A stretch of 34,178 bases of DNA from a virus (Duplodnaviria; Heunggongvirae; Uroviricota; Caudoviricetes), in the IMG/VR virus record IMGVR_UViG_2526164599_000011, one strand, 5' to 3'. This document shows, piece after piece, positions 3,238 to 26,118 of this stretch. A model generated the notes under the pieces. That model was given only the letters and a program-made list of their open reading frames with translations. It was not told where the DNA came from and did not search any database. How positions within the stretch are numbered: the stretch's first letter is position 1; each line of letters begins with the position of its first letter. The position numbers and the translations under genes are program-made.

Positions 3238-3509
3238 GTATTCGTATTGAAATTGGCGAACGTTATGTCGTTACCAGTGACAGCTTTCAGTTTATTCTCC
3301 ACGAGAAAAAGAGAGCGGAAAGCGGTAAAAACGCCGGTCAGGAATGGCTGGCGGTGGTTGGTTATTACCCGAAATTAGGCCAGCTCGTTTCCGGCCTGAT
3401 GCATCACGATATTCTGACCGGAAGCGCAAAATCTTTTGCTGATTTAAACGCGCAGGTTGAGCAACTCAGCAAGCGTTGTTCAGAGGCTTTTGGCTCATAT
3501 GGCCGTTAA
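3234..3509 (+). CDS. Hypothetical early protein (P2 orf83-like position)
   Basis: 91-aa ORF; its start overlaps the previous stop and its end overlaps the A start. Confidence 0.5.
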   Translation: MSIRIEIGERYVVTSDSFQFILHEKKRAESGKNAGQEWLAVVGYYPKLGQLVSGLMHHDILTGSAKSFADLNAQVEQLSKRCSEAFGSYGR

Positions 3510-5775
3510 AGCCTCCGGGCGTTTTGTCCCTCCGTCAGCATTTACCGCAGGCACCGGTAAGGCGTTTACCGGTGCTTATGCATGGAACGCGCCACGCGAG
3601 GCTGTCGGGCGCGAAAGACCTCTTACACGTGACGAGATGCGTCAGGTGCAAGGTGTTTTATCCACGATTAACCGCCTGCCTTACTTTTTGCGCTCGCTGT
3701 TTACTTCACGCTATGACTACATCCGGCGCAATAAAAGCCCGGTGCACGGGTTTTATTTCCTCACATCCACTTTTCAGCGTCGTTTATGGCCGCGCATTGA
3801 GCGTGTGAATCAGCGCCATGAAATGAACACCGACGCGTCGTTGCTGTTTCTGGCAGAGCGTGACCACTATGCGCGCCTGCCGGGAATGAATGACAAGGAG
3901 CTGAAAAAGTTTGCCGCCCGTATCTCATCGCAGCTTTTCATGATGTATGAGGAACTCTGCGATGCATGGGTTGATGCGCATGGTGAAAAAGAATCGCTGT
4001 TTACGGATGAGGCGCAGGCTCACCTGTATGGTCATGTTGCTGGCGCTGCACGTGCTTTCAATATTTCCCCGCTCTACTGGAAAAAATACCGTAAAGGACA
4101 GATGACCACGAGGCAGGCATATTCTGCCATTGCCCGTCTGTTTAACGATGAGTGGTGGACTCATCAGCTTAAAGGCCAGCGTATGCGCTGGCATGAAGCG
4201 TTACTGATAGCTGTCGGGGAGGTCAATAAAGACCGTTCTCCTTATGCCAGTAAACACGCCATTCGTGATGTGCGTGCGCGCCGCCAGGCAAATCTGGAAT
4301 TTCTTAAATCGTGTGACCTTGAAAACAGGGAAACCGGCGAGCGCATCGACCTTATCAGTAAGGTGATGGGCAGTATTTCTAATCCTGAAATTCGCCGGAT
4401 GGAGCTGATGAACACCATTGCCGGTATTGAGCGTTACGCCGCCGCAGAGGGCGATGTGGGGATGTTTATCACGCTGACCGCACCGTCAAAGTATCACCCG
4501 ACACGTCAGGTCGGAAAAGGCGAAAGTAAAACCGTGCAGCTTAATCACGGCTGGAACGATGAGGCATTTAATCCAAAGGATGCGCAGCGTTATCTCTGCC
4601 GTATCTGGAGCCTGATGCGCACGGCATTCAAGGATAATGATTTACAGGTTTACGGTTTGCGAGTCGTCGAGCCACACCACGACGGAACGCCGCACTGGCA
4701 TATGATGCTTTTTTGTAATCCACGCCAGCGTAACCAGATTATTGAAATCATGCGTCGCTACGCGCTCAAAGAGGATGGCGACGAAAGAGGAGCTGCGCGA
4801 AACCGTTTTCAGGCAAAACACCTTAACCGGGGCGGTGCTGCGGGATATATCGCGAAATACATTTCAAAAAACATCGACGGCTATGCACTGGATGGTCAGC
4901 TCGATAACGATACCGGCAGGCCGCTGAAAGACACTGCCGCGGCTGTTACCGCATGGGCGTCAACGTGGCGCATTCCGCAATTTAAAACGGTTGGCCTGCC
5001 GACAATGGGGGCTTACCGTGAACTACGCAAATTGCCTCGCGGCGTCAGCATTGCTGATGAGTTTGACGAGCGCGTCGAGGCTGCACGCGCCGCCGCAGAC
5101 AGTGGTGATTTTGCGTTGTATATCAGCGCGCAGGGTGGGGCAAATGTCCCGCGCGATTGTCAGACTGTCAGGGTCGCCCGTAGCCCGTCGGATGACGTTA
5201 ACGAGTACGAGGAAGAAGTCGAGAGAGTGGTCGGCATTTACGCGCCGCATCTCGGCGCGCGTCATATTCATATCACCAGAACGACGGACTGGCGCATTGT
5301 GCCGAAAGTTCCGGTCGTTGAGCCTTTGACTTTAAAAAGCGGCATCGCCGCGCCTCGGAGTCCTGTCAATAACTGTGGAAAGCTCACCGGTGGTGATACT
5401 TCGTTACCGGCTCCCACACCTTCTGAGCACGCCGCAGCAGTGCTTAATCTGGTTGATGACGGTGTTATCGAATGGAATGACCCGGAGGTCGTGAGGGCGC
5501 TCAAAAGCGCATTAAAACACGGCCTGAGAAGACCAAACCGTCAGCAAAGAAACGGAAACCCGTTAAAACCACATGAAATTGCACCATCGGCCAGACTGAG
5601 CCGGTCGGAGCGATTGCAAATCACCCGTATCCGCGTTGACCTTGCTCAGAATGGAATCTTGCCCCAGCGATGGGAGCTTGAGGCGCTGGCGCGTGGGGCA
5701 ACCGTAAATTATGACGGGAAAAAATTCACGTATCCGGTTGCTGATGAGTGGTCGGTTTTTTCAATTAAACAATAA
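3499..5775 (+). CDS. A: Replication initiation protein A (rolling-circle HUH-type endonuclease, P2 gpA-like)
   Basis: 758 codons from ATG 3499 (ORF extends upstream to 3457); P2 gpA is about 761 aa. HUH-like motif PHWHMMLF and the tyrosine-bearing segment GYIAKYISKNIDGY are present. Last gene of the early operon. Confidence 0.85.
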   Translation: MAVKASGRFVPPSAFTAGTGKAFTGAYAWNAPREAVGRERPLTRDEMRQVQGVLSTINRLPYFLRSLFTSRYDYIRRNKSPVHGFYFLTSTFQRRLWPRIERVNQRHEMNTDASLLFLAERDHYARLPGMNDKELKKFAARISSQLFMMYEELCDAWVDAHGEKESLFTDEAQAHLYGHVAGAARAFNISPLYWKKYRKGQMTTRQAYSAIARLFNDEWWTHQLKGQRMRWHEALLIAVGEVNKDRSPYASKHAIRDVRARRQANLEFLKSCDLENRETGERIDLISKVMGSISNPEIRRMELMNTIAGIERYAAAEGDVGMFITLTAPSKYHPTRQVGKGESKTVQLNHGWNDEAFNPKDAQRYLCRIWSLMRTAFKDNDLQVYGLRVVEPHHDGTPHWHMMLFCNPRQRNQIIEIMRRYALKEDGDERGAARNRFQAKHLNRGGAAGYIAKYISKNIDGYALDGQLDNDTGRPLKDTAAAVTAWASTWRIPQFKTVGLPTMGAYRELRKLPRGVSIADEFDERVEAARAAADSGDFALYISAQGGANVPRDCQTVRVARSPSDDVNEYEEEVERVVGIYAPHLGARHIHITRTTDWRIVPKVPVVEPLTLKSGIAAPRSPVNNCGKLTGGDTSLPAPTPSEHAAAVLNLVDDGVIEWNDPEVVRALKSALKHGLRRPNRQQRNGNPLKPHEIAPSARLSRSERLQITRIRVDLAQNGILPQRWELEALARGATVNYDGKKFTYPVADEWSVFSIKQ

Positions 5776-5919
5776 TGGCTACTGCCGCAGCGTTGTGGGA
5801 ATGCTATAGTGTTTGTAGAATTATCCCATGAAAAACAACTAATTAATCTGTTTTTCATATTGAACTAATTTTTTATGGCCACAGTTGTTAAAAAGTGAGA
5901 ACATAATCTTGTTCAAAAC

Positions 5920-5960
5920 CTGCTTCTATATACGGAGGCTTTCGCTATAATACGCGGTCG
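5920..5960 (+). promoter_or_regulatory. Putative sigma70-type promoter for the methyltransferase gene
   Basis: TATAAT at 5946-5951 inside an AT-rich tract, about 25 nt upstream of ATG 5977; -35 element is weak (CTTCTA around 5923-5928). Strong SD AGGAGG at 5966-5971. Confidence 0.25.
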
Positions 5961-5976
5961 GTTTTAGGAGGGGATA

Positions 5977-6921
5977 ATGCCAACAGTAGTTTCACTTTTT
6001 TCTGGATGCGGTGGTTCCGATGCGGGGGTTCTGAGAGCTGGCTTTGATGTGCTTATGGCCAACGATATCTTGCCGTATGCGCGCGATGTTTATATTGCCA
6101 ATCATCCAGAAACTGATTACATTTTAGGCAATATTGCTGATGTAACTACTTTTCCTAAATCTGATTTGCTAGTAGGTTGTTATCCATGTCAGGGATTCAG
6201 CCAGGGTGGTGCGCGTAAGGCCGATCGAAAAATTAATACTCTTTATTTAGAGTTTGCTAGAGCTTTAAACAATATAAAGCCTAAAGCTTTTATAGTAGAA
6301 AACGTGTCTGGTATGGTTAGAAAAAACTTCGAGCATTTGTTATCTGACCAGATCAGGGTTTTTACTGAAGCAGGTTATGCTGTTTCAGCAAAAGTTTTGA
6401 ATGCGGCTGAATATGGAGTAGCGCAGGAAAGAAAAAGAATATTTATCGTAGGAATCCGTAATGATTTCAAAGTTAAGTACGAGTTCCCTCAGCCAACTCA
6501 TGGGCCGGCGACTGGCGTCAACTATGTTACTATTAAAGATGCTATAGGGCATTTACCTGAATGGCCAGAAGGTGAATTTTATGATATGGGGTTCCATTGG
6601 TATTATATGTCTCGCAATCGTCGCCAAGATTGGGATCAAATTTCAAAGACAATAGTTGCTAATGCAAGGCATATGCCGTTGCATCCTATCAGTCCTTCGA
6701 TGGAGAAAGTAAGAACTGATGAATGGAGGTTTGTTGAGGATCGGAGAGCTCGCAGATTCAGTTTTCGAGAGGCAGCACTATTACAAGGGTTTGAGGATCT
6801 AGTGTTTCCCGAAACAAATGCTGCAAGTCTTGGCATGAAATACACGGTGGTTGGTAATGCAGTGCCTCCGCCGCTTTTTGAAGCTGTAACGAAGGCATTG
6901 CCAATAGAATTATGGGATTGA
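5977..6921 (+). CDS. DNA (cytosine-5)-methyltransferase
   Basis: 314 aa with canonical C5-MTase motifs: FSGCGG (motif I, AdoMet binding), GCYPCQGFSQGG (motif IV, catalytic PCQ), ENV (motif VI), QERKR (motif VIII), GNAVPPPL near the C-terminus (motif X). Strong SD; gene is visibly more AT-rich than the phage backbone. Confidence 0.9.
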   Translation: MPTVVSLFSGCGGSDAGVLRAGFDVLMANDILPYARDVYIANHPETDYILGNIADVTTFPKSDLLVGCYPCQGFSQGGARKADRKINTLYLEFARALNNIKPKAFIVENVSGMVRKNFEHLLSDQIRVFTEAGYAVSAKVLNAAEYGVAQERKRIFIVGIRNDFKVKYEFPQPTHGPATGVNYVTIKDAIGHLPEWPEGEFYDMGFHWYYMSRNRRQDWDQISKTIVANARHMPLHPISPSMEKVRTDEWRFVEDRRARRFSFREAALLQGFEDLVFPETNAASLGMKYTVVGNAVPPPLFEAVTKALPIELWD

Positions 6922-6928
6922 TAAGCTA

Positions 6929-7921
6929 TTAAGGCTCTGGATTTAATGTATAAAGTTCTTCTTCAAATTCGCGAAACCAATCAGAGGTAGTTATCGCTTC
7001 CCATTGGTTTGCCTTATCAAGTAGATATATGATCCTCAACCTATCTAATAATAATACACCAGCGGTTGCATGTGTGCTTACCCATTCGCCATTTGCTTCC
7101 CGATAGAAAACAGGCGTGAACATTGTTGATGGATGCTGGAAAGCAATTTGGAAATAGGTGGTCAGTTTTAACACGTTAGCCTCTAATGTTTTGCTTGGCC
7201 ACCCTGTTTCTTGTGCACCACATTGACCAAGAATTCCATAGTTGCTAGTTTGACCATCAGGAAATTCCACTGTAGCAATTAGGTCAAACCCAGCATCACC
7301 AGATGTGGGAGCTTTATTTATTTCCCTTGTGTTTAAACTACAAACTCCAAGATCTTTTCCTAAAATTTGTAGAGCATTCCGAAGATTCGTTCCATAATAT
7401 TTTTGCCTATCATCGGAGTTAGCATCAAAAATTCTTACGGTGCCATGTGCAGGTAAGAGAGAAATCATTGCAACTTTACATACTCTGGCAAAGCTCTTTG
7501 CCCAACGTTGTGCTGCTCCTCTAATCGACTTAAAGGATCTAAGTCTAGAGCAACAAAGGAGAAAAACATATATTCTTTGTTGTTGGTTTAGATTTTCTTT
7601 AATAATTATCTCATCACCTGAAATTATAAATGGATATATCTTTCCAAGAGCGCTTTCTCTATATTCGAGTTGTGTCCAAACATCTTCTAGTTGCTCTTCA
7701 AAACGATCATTTCTCTCTGCGTCTCCATCAATTTCTTCTTCAAAATTACATTCTTCATCAATTTCTTCAACACTTGTCATGCCGAATTTTCTTACTGAAT
7801 CTAAATCATTTTTATGCAGAGAGTTACGTCCGATATAATTAATCACCGTGAGTAACTCGGCTAAATCTGCAAACAAATGGGGAGAGTTGGGATGCATAAC
7901 TCCTACTTCAAAAGTCATCAT
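6929..7921 (-). CDS. Hypothetical protein, family not recognised; convergent with the MTase, downstream partner of the ParB-like gene
   Basis: About 330 aa; GTG at 7924 then ATGs at 7921 and 7918; start overlaps the stop of the upstream ParB-like gene (TGA 7908-7910). Acidic N-terminal region (EEIDEECNFEEEIDGDAERNDRFEEQLED). Stop TAA at 6929-6931 is 7 nt from the MTase stop. AT-rich. Confidence 0.7.
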   Translation of the reverse strand: MMTFEVGVMHPNSPHLFADLAELLTVINYIGRNSLHKNDLDSVRKFGMTSVEEIDEECNFEEEIDGDAERNDRFEEQLEDVWTQLEYRESALGKIYPFIISGDEIIIKENLNQQQRIYVFLLCCSRLRSFKSIRGAAQRWAKSFARVCKVAMISLLPAHGTVRIFDANSDDRQKYYGTNLRNALQILGKDLGVCSLNTREINKAPTSGDAGFDLIATVEFPDGQTSNYGILGQCGAQETGWPSKTLEANVLKLTTYFQIAFQHPSTMFTPVFYREANGEWVSTHATAGVLLLDRLRIIYLLDKANQWEAITTSDWFREFEEELYTLNPEP

Positions 7922-9029
7922 CACCTCTGCTATTTTTCTCTGCTATTTCAGAACCTATAAGCTTAATATGTTTATTGATTCTTCGTGCTACTTCATGAGC
8001 CTGTCTATCATACTCTACTGTGGCAACCATGCCTGCTGCATCTATCAAAGCCGCTTCAACTTGATAAAGTAACTGGAGAAAGTCCTTAGTAATATCAGAT
8101 GTCAATTGGTAGGCCACTGCGAGTGGAGCCCCCATTCGGAATTGCTCCAATGCCTTAGGGCTACTAACAACAGCAGCTAATTCTCTTAAATTACGTGACT
8201 CTCCAACACGAGTTTTTTTATCCTCACCTTTTTTATATAACCACTCAGTTAGCTCTTTTATTTCTTTGTTCTTTAAGCTATTAGAGTTGATAATAGGATG
8301 ACTTGGTATTGTGTCTCCATCGTCTTCGATTGAAACTCCGACAAATTGGCCTAACCGCTCATCAGCAAGTGCTGTTGATAATACTGAAAATTTAATCGTT
8401 TCTTCATCTAGTTTTTCAATACCATAAAAATCATTTTCTTTAATGATTTCATACACCGCTAAAGCGTCTAGGTTACGCTTGATATGATCCCTACGACTGC
8501 CAATAGCTCTGGCAACCTCATAGTAGCGTAGCATCGGATCCTGATTTGCATTGGTATAATCAAAAAGCTGTTTAATATATCGAGCTTTTGATAAGGGCTC
8601 CCATTGTTTGACACCAGTAATATGTCTGAAACCAAGATACGGAAGAATCTCTTCTCTTGTTTGGCGCTCAATGACAGGAACACGATCGACTGTATGTTTT
8701 GCATTTGATGCAATTTCTCGTAGTCGAGCACTTGGATTTTCACATAGTGTCGGATCGCGTAATAATTTAACTGCGGATAGGCGACGGTTTCCTTCAACTA
8801 CAATGTACTTCCCCGGCGCGACACTGTCAGGAATGACAATCAATGGTTCTCCAGGGAAAAAACCATTTTCCGCAATAGCACTCATTAGATCTTCGATAGA
8901 TGTTGAGGTTGCTATGTAGTTAATCATTCCCAATTGGTCACGAGACACGCCTTCAGGAAGTCTTGGGTTTTCTGTGTCAAGTTCCAAATCATCTAGCGGA
9001 ACATAAAGTATTTCTGAATCAGCAATCAT
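7908..9029 (-). CDS. ParB/Srx-like N-terminal domain protein (ParB-type nuclease/NTPase fold), function unknown
   Basis: 373 aa; N-terminal ILYVPLDDLELDTENPR...GEPLIVIP...YIVVEGNRRLSAV matches the ParB box I / GxxRxxA box II pattern. SD GGAG 7-10 nt upstream of ATG at 9029. AT-rich; first gene of a two-gene leftward operon. Confidence 0.75.
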   Translation of the reverse strand: MIADSEILYVPLDDLELDTENPRLPEGVSRDQLGMINYIATSTSIEDLMSAIAENGFFPGEPLIVIPDSVAPGKYIVVEGNRRLSAVKLLRDPTLCENPSARLREIASNAKHTVDRVPVIERQTREEILPYLGFRHITGVKQWEPLSKARYIKQLFDYTNANQDPMLRYYEVARAIGSRRDHIKRNLDALAVYEIIKENDFYGIEKLDEETIKFSVLSTALADERLGQFVGVSIEDDGDTIPSHPIINSNSLKNKEIKELTEWLYKKGEDKKTRVGESRNLRELAAVVSSPKALEQFRMGAPLAVAYQLTSDITKDFLQLLYQVEAALIDAAGMVATVEYDRQAHEVARRINKHIKLIGSEIAEKNSRGDDDF

Positions 9030-9255
9030 CTGGATCTCCGTTGAACATGTCTACGAGAAGGAGCACAAAGTTATTTCATAACATGCAATATACTCATTCT
9101 GTAGCCATAAATGAATTATTCATGATGTAAGATTCGCGTTGATGTGCGTGAATTCGCAAGTAATTTTATAGCAAGGTTTGATTGGGTATCGTTAGCACTG
9201 GCGCGGTTTCAACGTATTCATGCACCTGCATTAAAACCGACCCATGAAGCGGGCG

Positions 9256-9274
9256 GGCGAGGCGGGGAAAGCAC
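9256..9274. other. Probable cos site (19-nt cohesive end of P2-type phages)
   Basis: GGCGAGGCGGGGAAAGCAC at 9256-9274 matches the P2 cohesive-end sequence as I recall it, and lies about 170 bp from the end of portal gene Q where P2 cos sits. Sequence identity is from memory and not verified. Confidence 0.6.
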
Positions 9275-9443
9275 TGCGCGCTGGCGGTGGTGCTGATTTT
9301 ATTTTTTCAGCGTCTGAGCGCGTCGTGATGGCGTTTAGATTGTTAGCCGGGGCGTTGGTGTGTCTGCGGGCTGTTTTGTGCGGTGGTGAGCGTGTGAGAG
9401 CGTGATGGCGGGTTGTAAAAAAGCCGCCCGCAGGCGGCGATGT

Positions 9444-17191: not shown

Positions 17192-17622
17192 TGACTGTGC
17201 TGATTGTGTTGTTATCGCTGGCGGTGGCCGGTCTGTTTCTGGTGAAACACAAAAATGCCAGCCTGCGCGCCTCGCTGGACAGGGCGAACAATGTCGCCAG
17301 TGGGCAGCAGACGACCATCACCATGCTGAAAAATCAGCTTCATGTTGCACTCACCAGGGCAGACAAAAACGAGCTGGCGCAGGTGGCACTGCGTCAGGAA
17401 CTGGAGAACGCCGCGAAGCGTGAAGCACAGCGCGAGAAAACCATCACGAGGTTACTCAATGAAAACGAAGATTTTCGCCGCTGGTACGGTGCTGACCTGC
17501 CTGATGCTGTGCGCCGGTTGCACCAGCGCCCCGCCTGCACCGACGCCAGTGATTGTCCACAACGCCTGCCCGAAAGTGAGTCTTTGCCCGATGCCGGGCA
17601 GCGACCCGCAGACGAACGGTGA
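17179..17622 (+). CDS. lysB: LysB, Rz-like inner-membrane spanin
   Basis: 147 aa with N-terminal TM segment (LMTVLIVLLSLAVAGLFLV) and a coiled-coil-like periplasmic part; downstream of lysA. Confidence 0.8.
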   Translation: MSRLMTVLIVLLSLAVAGLFLVKHKNASLRASLDRANNVASGQQTTITMLKNQLHVALTRADKNELAQVALRQELENAAKREAQREKTITRLLNENEDFRRWYGADLPDAVRRLHQRPACTDASDCPQRLPESESLPDAGQRPADER

Positions 17623-22115: not shown

Positions 22116-22206
22116 TAGACTGGCCCCCTGAATCTCCAGACAACCAATATCACTTAAATAAGTGATAGTCTTAATACTAGTTTTTAGACTAGTCATTGGA
22201 GAGCAG

Positions 22207-22572
22207 ATGATTGATGTCTTAGGACCGGAGAAACGCAGACGGCGTACTACACAGGAAAAGATCGCTATTGTTCAGCAGAGTTTTGAACCGGGAATGACGG
22301 TCTCCCTTGTTGCCCGGCAACACGGTGTGGCAGCCAGCCAGTTATTTCTCTGGCGCAAGCAATACCAGGAGGGAAGTCTTACTGCTGTGGCCGCAGGAGA
22401 GCAGGTCGTTCCTGCCTCTGAACTTGCTGCTGCCATGAAGCAGATTAAAGAACTCCAGCGCCTGCTCGGCAAAAAAACGATGGAAAATGAACTCCTTAAA
22501 GAAGCCGTTGAATACGGGCGTGCAAAAAAGTGGATAGCGCACGCGCCCTTATTGCCCGGGGATGGGGAGTAA
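22207..22572 (+). CDS. insC: IS2 transposase OrfA (InsC, HTH DNA-binding component)
   Basis: 121 aa from ATG 22207; sequence [52 protein letters not shown] is recognisable as IS2 InsC. Confidence 0.9.
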
Positions 22573-23435
22573 GCTTAGTCAGCCGTTGTCTCCGGGTGTC
22601 GCGTGCGCAGTTGCACGTAATTCTCAGACGAACCGATGACTGGAAAGATGGTCGCCGCAGCCGTCACTCAGATGATACGGATGTGCTTCTCCGTATACAC
22701 CATGTTATCGGAGAGCTGCCCACGTATGGTTATCGTCGGGTATGGGCGCTGCTTCGCAGACAGGCCGAACTTGATGGTATGCCTGCGATCAATGCCAAAC
22801 GTGTTTACCGGATCATGCGCCAGAATGCGCTGTTGCTTGAGCGAAAAACCGCTGTACCGCCATCGAAACGGGCACATACTGGCAAAGTGGCCGTGAAAGA
22901 AAGCAATCAACGATGGTGCTCTGACGGGTTCGAGTTCCGCTGTGATAACGGAGAAAAACTGCGAGTCACGTTCGCGCTGGACTGCTGTGACCGTGAGGCA
23001 CTGCACTGGGCAGTCACTACGGGCGGCTTCGACAGTGAAACAGTACAGGACGTAATGCTGGGAGCGGTGGAACGCCGCTTCGGCAACGAGCTTCCGGCGT
23101 CTCCAGTAGAGTGGCTGACGGATAATGGTTCATGCTACCGGGCTAATGAAACACGGCAGTTTGCCCGGATGTTGGGGCTTGAACCGAAGAACACGGCGGT
23201 GCGGAGTCCGGAGAGTAACGGCATAGCAGAGAGCTTCGTGAAAACGATAAAGCGTGACTACATCAGTATCATGCCTAAACCAGACGGGTTAACGGCAGCA
23301 AAGAACCTTGCAGAGGCGTTCGAGCATTATAACGAATGGCATCCGCATAGTGCACTGGGTTATCGCTCGCCACGGGAATATCTGCGGCAGCAGGCCAGTA
23401 ATGGGTTAAGTGATAACAGGTGTCTGGAAATATAG
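22530..23435 (+). CDS. insD: IS2 transposase OrfB (InsD, DDE catalytic domain), normally expressed as an OrfAB fusion by -1 frameshift
   Basis: 301-aa ORF with DDE-type integrase-core sequence (WCSDGFEF...DNGSCY...ESNGIAESF); A AAA AAG slippery heptamer at 22524-22530 in the overlap with insC. Confidence 0.9.
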
Positions 23436-25218: not shown

Positions 25219-26118
25219 ATGAGTGGTATTCGTATAACTCAGGCTATTGATAACAATCAGATTTTAGTCAATGTAAATACTTTTAATTATAGTGTTAATC
25301 CCTATCCACTCAAATGTCCTGACCCAAATTGCTCTGCTCATTTGGTGTATGTCAAAAGCCATATTCGTCGGAGTTTTAATAAAACCTTGCATATCCCCGC
25401 CTTCTTTAGACTGGAAAAAAATTTCACGCATGACAAATTATGTCAGTATGGAACTTCAGGATTGAATACAATTTATGCAAGTGATTCCAGTCATGATATC
25501 AGCCGTGCGCTTGCCACAGGTAATAATATATTCCGTATACATATACTCGATGAAGATGATATCTCTAAATTAAGCAGAAAAGCTGCAGCTATGCAGGCAA
25601 ATCCACCTTCTGATACTACAGACCGCGTTTATGTCAAGAGAGGTCGGAAAGCCCCCTATGTGAAGAACATGGATAGCTTACGGGAGATCTATGAATATGG
25701 AAAAGCTCACCCCAACAAGAGAAACAGCATAAAAATTGTTACTGGAACAAGTACTGTAACGTGGTCTGATTTTTTCTATGAAACAACGCAGTTAGAACGA
25801 TTGTCAACTTACCTCCAGAAAGTAAAAATAGCTCAGGTTGCTGTAATTATGAAAGTGCATGTGGCGAGAATCCCTATGGCGAAATTTAATTATCGACACT
25901 TCATTGAAGGTTCGCCAATGAGGATAAAAGGGGGCTTTAATATATATCCTACGATTCAATTAGGAAATGTTACTCCAAAATTATTTCCGTTGAGTAGCAT
26001 TGTCATGGTACTCGGTAAATTTACTATTCCAACAAATAGAAAAATGATAATGGATCCAACATTTGAGCGTGAAGTCAGAACCATAGTTTCTAGTGAAGAG
26101 CAAGTGCTAATTCTTTGA
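25219..26118 (+). CDS. Hypothetical 299-aa protein, family not recognised; AT-rich cargo gene at the P2 Z/fun position
   Basis: ATG at 25219 with strong SD GGAGG; 299 aa; much more AT-rich than the flanking tail genes, with AT-rich non-coding DNA on both sides (25004-25218 and 26119-26437). Contains CPDPNCSAH near the N-terminus; no family assigned by eye. Confidence 0.7.
   Translation: MSGIRITQAIDNNQILVNVNTFNYSVNPYPLKCPDPNCSAHLVYVKSHIRRSFNKTLHIPAFFRLEKNFTHDKLCQYGTSGLNTIYASDSSHDISRALATGNNIFRIHILDEDDISKLSRKAAAMQANPPSDTTDRVYVKRGRKAPYVKNMDSLREIYEYGKAHPNKRNSIKIVTGTSTVTWSDFFYETTQLERLSTYLQKVKIAQVAVIMKVHVARIPMAKFNYRHFIEGSPMRIKGGFNIYPTIQLGNVTPKLFPLSSIVMVLGKFTIPTNRKMIMDPTFEREVRTIVSSEEQVLIL

What the first reader, a model, noticed from the sequence alone, without database searches (positions are those of the whole stretch)
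7908..9029. ParB/Srx-fold protein with no visible partition context, first gene of the cargo operon
The N-terminus has the ParB box I/II pattern (...NPR...; VVEGNRRLSAV = GxxRxxA). ParB/Srx-fold domains act as CTP/NTP-binding switches or nucleases and recur in defence contexts (DndB-like DGQHR proteins, DUF262 of GmrSD-type enzymes). A ParB-fold protein coupled to an unknown 331-aa protein next to an MTase in a phage defence hotspot is not a combination I recognise. No parA or parS-like partner is seen in the window.
Basis: partly seen in the sequence, partly recalled or inferred. Interest (0 to 1): 0.75.

Follow-up and report, generated by a model that had tools for sequence, protein, structure and literature searches.

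The report
ParB-like subunit of prophage restriction cassette
The gene encodes a real ParB-fold DNA-binding protein that has nothing to do with plasmid partition. It is the first gene of a widespread, still uncharacterised three-gene restriction-modification-like cassette (ParB-like protein, probable nuclease, cytosine methylase) carried in the known defence hotspot of P2-like prophages.

Summary
**Observation: confirmed.**
- Window 7908-9029 (-) encodes a 373-aa protein with DxxNPR and EGNRR motifs.
- Its AlphaFold model (pLDDT 88.8) matches KorB, PadC, sulfiredoxin and Spo0J, so it has a ParB N-domain followed by a helix-turn-helix.
- The prophage carries no ParA and no parS.

**What it belongs to.**
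- The gene overlaps by 11 nt the start of a 329-aa gene. That protein models as a winged helix plus a restriction-endonuclease-like fold, with modest support.
- This pair converges on an M.HaeIII-like C5 methyltransferase.
- The trio was intact in every related locus with enough flank, from Escherichia, Pseudomonas, Burkholderia and Methylomonas. Distant versions occur in phage Wphi (gp98/gp96/Mth) and a Pseudomonas phage.
- The closest defence family is PD-lambda-5 (ParB/HEPN protein plus Dam-like methylase, experimentally validated). Only the first ~190 residues match it.
- Rousset et al. 2022 already list these exact proteins as a P2-hotspot locus. I found no functional test of them.

**Verdict.**
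- Best reading (confidence ~0.5): this is an R-M-like defence cassette in which the ParB-like protein is the DNA-sensing, nucleotide-switch subunit that licenses the nuclease on unmethylated DNA.
- Main rival: it is a KorB/C-protein-like transcriptional controller.
- It is a new variant of a known kind, of moderate-to-good interest.

The parts
7908..9029 (-). Gene for the 373-aa ParB-like protein (WP_000559726), first gene of the restriction-side operon.
   Evidence: ORF; NCBI annotation; more than 2000 homologues; PADLOC PD-Lambda-5_A 1.6e-28; phrog_3694, function unknown.
8655..9011 (-). ParB/Srx N-terminal nucleotide-binding fold, about residues 7-125. It contains DxxNPR (8958-8978), the Box I-like SIEDLMSAIAENGFFPGEP, and Box II EGNRR (8781-8795).
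8613..8636 (-). LGFRHITG motif (residues 132-139), which occupies the place of ParB Box III (ENLQR).
   Evidence: L132, G133, R135, H136 and G139 are 95-100% conserved across 139 representatives, as are W143 and K148. The correspondence to Box III is my manual alignment against the H. pylori ParB hit; I extended that alignment past the reported stretch using the remembered ParB consensus.
8430..8597 (-). Helix-turn-helix DNA-binding region, about residues 145-200, with the near-invariant stretch IGSRRDHIKRNLDALAVY.
7911..8429 (-). C-terminal, mostly helical domain (residues 201-373) with no informative structural match. It carries an invariant GESR (276-279) and an acidic tail ending in Phe (DDDF).
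6929..7918 (-). Gene for the 329-aa partner (WP_000142507): an N-terminal winged helix, an acidic linker, and a C-terminal PD-(D/E)xK-like domain, the probable nuclease. Its start overlaps the ParB gene's end by 11 nt.
5977..6921 (+). C5 cytosine DNA methyltransferase (WP_001143635), convergent with the ParB/nuclease operon; the stop codons are 7 nt apart.
   Evidence: Pfam DNA_methylase 5e-65. Best solved relative is M.HaeIII (GGCC) at 2.8e-48, aligned over the full length including the target-recognition domain. M.HhaI aligns only over the catalytic half, at 1e-23.
9030..9197 (-). Cassette-specific leader and promoter region of the ParB/nuclease operon, between the gene and the P2 backbone and cos site (cos at 9256-9274).
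   Evidence: Phage homology to P2 relatives covers only window ~9198-9443; cos found; sequence. No promoter has been mapped.
5776..5976 (+). Methyltransferase promoter region: a conserved TTTCGCTATAAT (-10 at 5946-5951), an AGGAGG ribosome-binding site, and a conserved ATGGCCAC (TGGCCA at 5876-5881).
   Evidence: Conserved in many related loci, including a Burkholderia one; TGGCCA positions.

Best explanation
The 373-aa protein is the ParB/KorB-like subunit of a three-gene, restriction-modification-like anti-phage cassette carried as cargo in the P2 gpA-gpQ hotspot.

**Proposed working.**
1. The M.HaeIII-like C5 methyltransferase marks host and prophage DNA, probably at GGCC-containing sites. 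The enzyme class is shown by homology; the specificity is inferred.
2. The ParB-like protein and the 329-aa winged-helix/PD-(D/E)xK-like protein are made together from overlapping genes. This is shown by the sequence.
3. The ParB-like protein binds DNA through its helix-turn-helix. It uses its invariant nucleotide pocket (DxxNPR, EGNRR, RH) as an NTP-controlled switch, as ParB, KorB and the DUF262 sensor domains do. This lets it engage unmethylated DNA and recruit or license the nuclease. This step is inferred.
4. The nuclease cuts unmodified incoming DNA. This step is inferred.

In short, the cassette is a split relative of PD-lambda-5 with its effector and methylase swapped.
For: **The trio behaves as one unit.**
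- All three genes are present in every related locus with enough flank, across four genera and several kinds of mobile element.
- Identities fall together across loci: ParB 99 to 43%, partner 97 to 30%, methylase 99 to 63%.
- Distant trios occur in phage Wphi and Pseudomonas phage D14A. There the partner is still homologous (hhalign probability 99.4% and 99.7%), and the Wphi methylase is 76% identical.
- The ParB and partner genes overlap by 11-14 nt in most loci.

**Link to a validated defence system.**
- The nearest family is PD-lambda-5_A, at 1.6e-28. PD-lambda-5 is an experimentally validated ParB/HEPN plus methylase system.
- Component A of PD-lambda-5 occurs fused in Marinobacter phage AS1. 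In Vibrio phage ValB1MD-2 it is split into a ParB part and an effector part with overlapping genes. The ParB module therefore belongs physically with the effector.

**The pocket is under strong selection.** Pocket residues are 95-100% conserved across 139 representatives that are 33-56% identical to the query.

**Folds.** ParB-N plus HTH for this protein. The top structural matches for the partner are restriction endonucleases in two methods.

**Context.** Low-GC cargo lying between gpA and gpQ, the hotspot described in PMC9122126 and PMC9519451.
Against: - No experiment exists on this cassette; Rousset 2022 only lists it.
- ParB Box III (ENLQR) is replaced. Nucleotide specificity cannot be predicted for this fold (PMC12704722).
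- I found no fusion of this ParB family with this nuclease family.
- The best structural match, KorB, is a transcriptional repressor.
Confidence: 0.5

Rival explanations
1. **Controller model.** The 329-aa protein is a conventional type II restriction enzyme. The ParB-like protein is a large KorB/C-protein/DndB-like transcriptional controller. It binds the promoters, possibly nucleotide-dependently, and delays or limits nuclease expression so that the methylase acts first.
For: - The gene sits immediately upstream of, and overlapping, the nuclease gene, convergent with M. From my knowledge of the field, this is how C genes lie in systems such as Esp1396I.
- DndB is a ParB-like regulator inside a modification system (background cited in PMC12065111).
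- Phage L-413C keeps a truncated ParB gene alone, so the protein is not toxic by itself.
Against: - At 373 aa with an invariant nucleotide pocket, it is far larger than C proteins.
- I found no conserved operator. The 32-nt similarity between the two promoter regions (I1) is not kept in the close relatives L013 and L014.
- In PD-lambda-5 the homologous module is fused to the effector itself.
Confidence: 0.25
2. **ParB-as-nuclease model.** The ParB-like N-domain is itself the DNA-cleaving or nicking enzyme. The 329-aa protein is an inactive endonuclease-like DNA-recognition or regulatory partner.
For: - The partner lacks the canonical (D/E)xK lysine.
- The invariant R135-H136 could be catalytic.
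Against: - D208, D212, Q232, K243 and E246 of the partner are invariant down to 24-30% identity. That argues for an active site there.
- D-x19-Q resembles the MspJI D...QxK motif (motif recalled from memory; MspJI is the top Foldseek match).
Confidence: 0.1
3. **Not primarily defence.** The methylase protects the phage genome from host restriction, or alters host gene expression. The ParB-like/partner pair serves phage DNA handling, or acts with the methylase as a selfish addiction module that stabilises the prophage.
For: - ParB-fold/methyltransferase fusions are common in phages and have been proposed to act in anti-defence (PMC12704722).
- The cassette travels on viable phages such as Yersinia phage HQ103.
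- Addiction is a known property of restriction-modification systems.
Against: - The ParB gene is coupled to the nuclease-like gene, not to the methylase.
- The strict three-gene linkage holds outside phages too, in Methylomonas next to a transposase.
- The cassette sits in a hotspot enriched for defence genes, and its relative PD-lambda-5 protects against many phages.
Confidence: 0.1

Closest known systems
PD-lambda-5 (Vassallo et al. 2022, PMC9519451): a ParB/HEPN protein (A) plus a D12-class adenine methyltransferase (B)
   Same: - Prophage-borne and compact, pairing a ParB-fold protein with a methylase.
- The authors call it a 'compacted RM+Abi' system.
- The first ~190 residues (ParB-N fold and the start of the HTH) are homologous, at 1.6e-28.
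- Component A can be split into a ParB part and an effector part, giving the same three-gene logic.
   Different: - The effector here is a separate winged-helix/PD-(D/E)xK-like protein with no PADLOC match, rather than the HEPN-like C-terminus.
- The methylase is C5 and M.HaeIII-like, not Dam-like.
- This ParB protein has its own ~170-residue C-terminal domain.
- M is convergent rather than co-directional.
Type II restriction-modification systems with a controller gene (C-R operon plus M)
   Same: - A methylase plus an endonuclease-fold protein in strict linkage.
- A small upstream gene overlaps R.
- Convergent M, and carriage on mobile elements.
   Different: - The upstream gene encodes a 373-aa ParB-fold protein with an invariant nucleotide pocket, not an ~80-100-aa HTH protein.
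- No C-box was found.
- The nuclease matches no Pfam or PADLOC restriction-enzyme family.
ParB-superfamily (DUF262/DGQHR) sensors in defence: GmrSD, SspE, DndB, Menshen NsnA
   Same: A ParB-fold NTP-binding domain followed by a DNA-binding domain, coupled to a nuclease effector. These are used to sense the modification state of DNA (PMC12065111).
   Different: - No DUF262 or DndB profile match.
- The motif is EGNRR, not DGQQR or DGQHR.
- Those systems are modification-dependent or work with phosphorothioation. This cassette carries its own C5 methylase, so it should attack unmodified DNA.
KorB / chromosomal ParB (CTP-dependent DNA sliding clamps)
   Different: - No ParA, KorA or parS.
- Box III is replaced by FRHITG.
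- No LG-(R/K)-GL ParA-binding motif.
- The C-terminal domain is unrelated.
- The partner is a nuclease-like protein.
Phage Wphi orf98-orf96-mth and the 'DNA_methylase + hypothetical + ParBc' locus in Rousset 2022 Table S5A
   Same: These are the same cassette. Rousset lists the exact accessions WP_000559726, WP_001143635 and WP_000142507. Wphi carries a distant homologue of it at the same hotspot.
   Different: These are catalogue entries only. No function, domain analysis or test was found in the searched literature.

Membership tests
Partition ParB (ParABS) | ParB N-terminal fold with Box II GxxRxxA | tested here: met
Partition ParB (ParABS) | Reaches the curated family threshold (Pfam ParB_N, TIGR00180) | tested here: not met
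   Pfam 13.3 bits against a cutoff of 26.3; TIGR00180 32.8 bits against 58.45.
Partition ParB (ParABS) | Cognate ParA ATPase gene nearby and an N-terminal ParA-binding motif LG-(R/K)-GL | tested here: not met
   No ParA in the annotated prophage, nor in the related loci whose gene tables I read. The N-terminus MIADSEILYVPLDDLELD lacks the motif (motif as defined in PMC12704722).
Partition ParB (ParABS) | parS centromere site | tested here: not met
   No site with fewer than 2 mismatches; the number of matches is within the chance range.
Partition ParB (ParABS) | Box III ENLQR (Mg/phosphate contacts, CTP hydrolysis) | tested here: not met
   The equivalent stretch reads GFRHITGVK, by manual alignment to H. 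pylori ParB. R135 and H136 are the conserved residues there.
PD-lambda-5 | Component A: N-terminal ParB-like module | tested here: met
   25 of the PD-Lambda-5_A models listed match; the best is 1.6e-28, covering residues 9-192.
PD-lambda-5 | Component A: C-terminal HEPN-like effector region | tested here: not met
   No model matches beyond residue ~202. The H of RRINKH is not conserved. The 329-aa partner matches no PADLOC model.
PD-lambda-5 | Component B: D12-class N6-adenine methyltransferase | tested here: not met
   The methylase here is C5 (PF00145, 5e-65; M.HaeIII-like). PD-lambda-5B is MethyltransfD12.
PD-lambda-5 | Protects against phage when cloned | not testable with these tools
   Needs plaque assays.
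Type II restriction-modification | DNA methyltransferase strictly linked to the restriction gene(s) | tested here: met
   All three genes are present in every related locus with enough flank.
Type II restriction-modification | Endonuclease with a PD-(D/E)xK (or other nuclease) catalytic core | tested here: inconclusive
Type II restriction-modification | Sequence-specific cleavage blocked by the cognate methylation, with no NTP needed | not testable with these tools
   Needs biochemistry.
DUF262 / DndB-DGQHR defence sensors | Profile match to PF03235 or PF14072, and a DGQQR/DGQHR motif | tested here: not met
   No such Pfam hit at E<=1; the motif here is EGNRR.
R-M controller (C) proteins | Small (~80-100 aa) HTH protein with a conserved C-box operator upstream of its own gene | tested here: not met
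   The protein is 373 aa. No operator is conserved across loci, and the I1 repeat is not kept in L013 or L014.
KorB-type CTP-switch repressors | ParB-CTPase fold plus an operator-binding HTH | tested here: met
KorB-type CTP-switch repressors | CTP binding and clamp closure; a KorA-like partner; defined operators | not testable with these tools
   Nucleotide specificity of this fold cannot be predicted from sequence or AlphaFold3 (PMC12704722).

The most novel reading that the evidence does not exclude
The ParB-like protein is a nucleotide-gated (CTP or another NTP) DNA clamp. It loads on unmethylated target sites, slides, and delivers or activates the PD-(D/E)xK partner. That would be a new class of NTP-dependent restriction enzyme, in which a ParB-CTPase fold replaces the helicase-type ATPase motors or switches of type I, III and ISP enzymes. 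It would also supply the mechanism for the whole PD-lambda-5 / PDC-M38 group.
Probability: 0.25. Interest if true: 0.8.

Novelty: new variant of a known kind. Interest (0 to 1): 0.6.

Why it matters
- **Abundance.** The cassette and its relatives are common. 48 of 5426 complete E. coli genomes carry this near-identical version, and the ParB-like family has 330 clusters (at 50% identity) at E<=1e-30. It is found in P2-like phages of Escherichia and Yersinia (the Yersinia phages grown on Y. pestis) and in prophages or islands of Pseudomonas and Burkholderia.
- **Invisible to annotation.** The nuclease-like partner matches no PADLOC model, only the N-terminal half of the ParB-like protein hits PD-lambda-5_A, and PHROGs lists both families as 'unknown function'.
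- **What working it out would give.** It would show how a ParB-fold nucleotide switch can be wired to a nuclease and a methylase. It would also give a mechanism for the validated but unexplained PD-lambda-5, and possibly a new kind of restriction enzyme.
- **Prophage biology.** It bears on how P2-like prophages exclude other phages.

Tried and rejected
1. **HEPN reading of the C-terminus.** RRINKH fits Rx4H, but H355 is not conserved in the family. Rejected.
2. **A shared operator in both promoter regions.** The 32-nt similarity (5853-5884 versus 9099-9130) and 'GCTACAG' upstream of ParB in three loci looked promising. The element is not kept in the close relatives L013 and L014. Rejected.
3. 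**CATGCA-type repeats upstream of the ParB gene.** They occur only in P2-context loci and continue the cos-flanking backbone. They are absent from the Methylomonas, Burkholderia and Pseudomonas loci. I attribute them to the P2 backbone, not the cassette.
4. **TGGCCA as the target, shown by site enrichment.** Four of the five sites in the window lie in the cassette. Across 36 loci there is no general enrichment: 0.40 per kb in cassettes against 0.31 in flanks. Left open.
5. **Rosetta-stone fusion of this ParB family with this nuclease family.** None appeared among the 150 best representatives or the 276 partner homologues.
6. **Sequence searches of solved structures.** Only a marginal ParB hit for the ParB-like family (E 0.022) and nothing meaningful for the partner.
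7. **Pfam scan of 54 partner homologues.** No consistent family.
8. **AlphaFold-database fold search.** The library was unavailable.
9. **Literature searches.** I searched for PDC-M38, for ParB/CTPase in anti-phage roles, and for the Wphi methylase. None turned up a paper describing this trio's function. A Tn-seq paper that looked relevant concerns other R-M systems.
Full report
**Where we are.** The window is a complete P2-like prophage, 100% identical to E. coli TW10590 and integrated between cpxP and fieF.
- After the replication gene gpA (3457-5775) comes a 3.4-kb block with GC of 37-42%, against about 55% in the backbone.
- The block ends at the P2 cos site (9256-9274) and the portal gene.
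- This is the gpA-gpQ locus, which holds old/tin in P2 itself. Rousset et al. (PMC9122126) and Vassallo et al. (PMC9519451) describe it as a hotspot of anti-phage systems.
- Homology to other P2 phages stops at about window 9198. Everything from about 5776 to 9197 is therefore cargo.

**Checking the observation.** The ORF at 7908-9029 (-) encodes 373 aa, with DTENPRL at residues 18-24 and EGNRR at 79-83.
- General profiles are only suggestive. Pfam ParB_N gives E 0.09, below threshold. TIGR00180 gives 5e-8, below its cutoff.
- The defence-specific library is clear. Twenty-five listed PD-Lambda-5_A models match, the best at 1.6e-28 over residues 9-192. PDC-M38A matches at 2e-21 over residues 43-339.
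- An AlphaFold2 model built on 53 homologues is confident (pLDDT 88.8).
- So the first ~200 residues are a ParB N-domain followed by a helix-turn-helix, as in true ParB and KorB. Residues ~200-373 are a helical domain with no informative match.
- There is no ParA in the prophage and no credible parS.
- No DUF262 or DndB profile matches.

**Conservation.** The family is large: more than 2000 word-indexed homologues. The exhaustive search found 3598 clusters at 50% identity, 330 of them at E<=1e-30, and the best 150 have nearly all the same ~360-400-aa architecture.
- I compared 139 representatives that are 33-56% identical to the query. The residues kept at 95-100% are D18, N21-P22-R23, E61, E79-G-N-R-R83, L132-G133, R135-H136, G139, W143, K148, G177 and F214; S278 (94%), W263 (92%) and R279 (91%) are nearly as constant.
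- These correspond to Box I and Box II of the ParB-CTPase fold, plus a family-specific RH motif where ParB has Box III (manual alignment to the hit).
[quoted passage not shown] It also reports that CTP, ATP or GTP preference cannot be predicted from sequence or AlphaFold3 (PMC12704722).
- I therefore claim a conserved nucleotide pocket, not CTP.
- The C-terminal RRINKH looks like HEPN Rx4H, but the His is not conserved.
- The close subfamily ends in an acidic tail with a terminal Phe (DDDF or EDEF). The Phe persists in the Methylomonas homologue, where the genes do not overlap, so it is not a by-product of the overlapping reading frame.

**The neighbours.**
- *Partner gene.* The next gene (6929-7918, 329 aa) starts 11 nt before the ParB stop, with the sequence AGAGGTGATGATGACTTTTGAA. 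It has no Pfam, NCBIfam or PADLOC match and about 275 homologues, all named 'hypothetical'.
- *Partner active-site candidates.* G207-D208, D212, Q232, W240, K243 and E246 are invariant even in members only 24-30% identical. The lysine expected two residues after Q232 is a Gly or Ala. I therefore rate 'nuclease' as probable, not shown.
- *Methylase.* The third gene (5977-6921, +) is a C5 methyltransferase (PF00145, 5e-65). Its best solved relative is M.HaeIII (GGCC), aligned over the full length including the target-recognition domain at 2.8e-48. M.HhaI aligns only over the catalytic half. The aligned region keeps SRNR and a following Arg. From memory, these are the M.HaeIII base-contacting arginines; I treat that as a lead, not a test. 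The target probably contains GGCC.

**The trio is one unit.**
- Genome look-ups of distant ParB homologues found ParB, then a ~330-aa gene, then a convergent C5 methylase in three settings. These were Methylomonas (beside a transposase), a Burkholderia prophage, and a Pseudomonas integrative element.
- Among those loci and 34 viral contigs, every locus with enough flank has all three genes. Identities fall together: ParB 99 to 43%, partner 97 to 30%, methylase 99 to 63%. One locus has the order M, ParB, partner on a single strand.
- Phage Wphi carries gp98 (34% identical to the ParB-like protein), gp96 (hhalign probability 99.4% to the partner family) and Mth (76% identical methylase) at the same hotspot. 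Pseudomonas phage D14A carries another such trio.
- Yersinia phage L-413C retains only a truncated ParB gene.

**Relation to what is known.**
- PD-lambda-5 was selected experimentally from ECOR7. [quoted passage not shown] Its B component is a D12 adenine methylase.
- I found the fused form in Marinobacter phage AS1.
- I found a split form in Vibrio phage ValB1MD-2. There a 252-aa ORF matches model positions 4-238 of 503 (4e-109). An overlapping 265-aa ORF matches positions 250-502 (2e-69). A PD-Lambda-5_B methylase follows.
- This fused/split pair shows that the ParB module works physically with the effector. The cassette here has the same logic with a different effector, a different methylase class and an extra C-terminal domain.
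- It fails three of the four defining features of PD-lambda-5. I therefore call it a relative, not a member.
- Rousset et al. list exactly WP_000559726 + WP_001143635 + WP_000142507 ('ParBc + DNA_methylase + hypothetical') among P2-hotspot loci. There are about 99 rows of this arrangement in the held part of their table. The accessions appear only in that catalogue file.
- PHROGs holds both proteins as families of unknown function.
- No searched paper describes the trio's function.

**Mechanism.**
- *Shown.* The folds, the operon overlap, the strict linkage, the conserved pocket, and the homology to a validated defence component.
- *Inferred.* The methylase marks self DNA. The ParB-like protein reads DNA through its HTH and switches state on nucleotide binding. 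It then recruits or licenses the nuclease on unmethylated DNA.
- *Main rival.* The ParB-like protein is a KorB/C-protein-like controller of an otherwise ordinary type II enzyme. Gene order and the KorB match fit that. The protein's size, its invariant pocket, the lack of a conserved operator and the PD-lambda-5 fusion argue against it.
- *Limits.* The two readings are not exclusive.

**Verdict.**
- The cassette is a widespread, catalogued but uncharacterised R-M-like system. It is a new variant within the family of ParB-fold defence systems.
- Interest is moderate to good. It would be high if the ParB-like subunit proves to be a nucleotide-gated clamp that drives restriction.

Noticed in passing
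window 22162-23435: An IS3-family insertion sequence (orfA/orfB with a programmed frameshift) interrupts the tail-fibre gene. NCBI marks the flanking tail protein as a pseudogene, so this prophage is probably defective for particle formation.
   Followed up: partly
window 25219-26118 (+): A 299-aa hypothetical protein sits in a second low-GC island (39-42%) between the tail-fibre assembly gene and the sheath gene. This is the P2 'hotspot #2' (Z/fun locus) noted by Vassallo et al. It matches phrog_7195 (unknown function) and no PADLOC model, so it is a candidate second cargo or defence gene.
   Followed up: partly
window 5876-5881, and related loci ~95-100 nt upstream of the methylase start: ATGGCCAC (containing TGGCCA, and within it GGCC) is conserved upstream of the methylase gene in many otherwise diverged loci. 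Four of the five TGGCCA sites in the window lie inside the cassette (5876, 6056, 6562, 7196). This could be methylation-sensitive autoregulation, or the system's own target. No general enrichment was seen across 36 loci.
   Followed up: partly
window 7908-7925: The ParB-like protein ends in an acidic tail with a terminal Phe (GDDDF). This recalls the SSB and T7 gp2.5 C-terminal tails that dock onto partner proteins. It is conserved in the close subfamily even where the genes do not overlap. Wider relatives keep an acidic tail but not the Phe.
   Followed up: partly
L045 (Yersinia phage L-413C, AY251033 29530-30522): This P2-like phage (host given as Yersinia pestis in the RefSeq record) keeps only a truncated copy of the ParB-like gene (query residues 9-303, 62% identical). 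The nuclease-like and methylase genes are gone, leaving a decayed cassette.
   Followed up: no
L047 (Vibrio phage ValB1MD-2) 3132-5571; L048 (Marinobacter phage AS1) 3468-5933: PD-lambda-5 component A occurs split into two overlapping ORFs (a ParB part and an effector part) in one phage, and fused in another. Each is followed by the Dam-like methylase.
   Followed up: yes
whole window: Short palindromes are strongly depleted. Observed/expected ratios are GATC 0.28, CCAGG and CCTGG 0.4-0.5, GGCC 0.66 and TGGCCA 5 against 16.6 expected. This is consistent with long-term restriction avoidance by the P2 backbone.
   Followed up: no
window 17234-17249: TGTTTCTGGTGAAACA is a parS-like imperfect palindrome (2 mismatches to the consensus) inside the lysis-gene region. 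The number of such matches is within the chance range (5 of 100 shuffles).
   Followed up: yes
L043 (phage Wphi) versus the window: The methylase is far better conserved than its partners. Against Wphi it is 76% identical, while the ParB-like protein is 34% and the nuclease-like protein about 26%. This suggests either fast diversification of the restriction side or exchange of the methylase gene.
   Followed up: no
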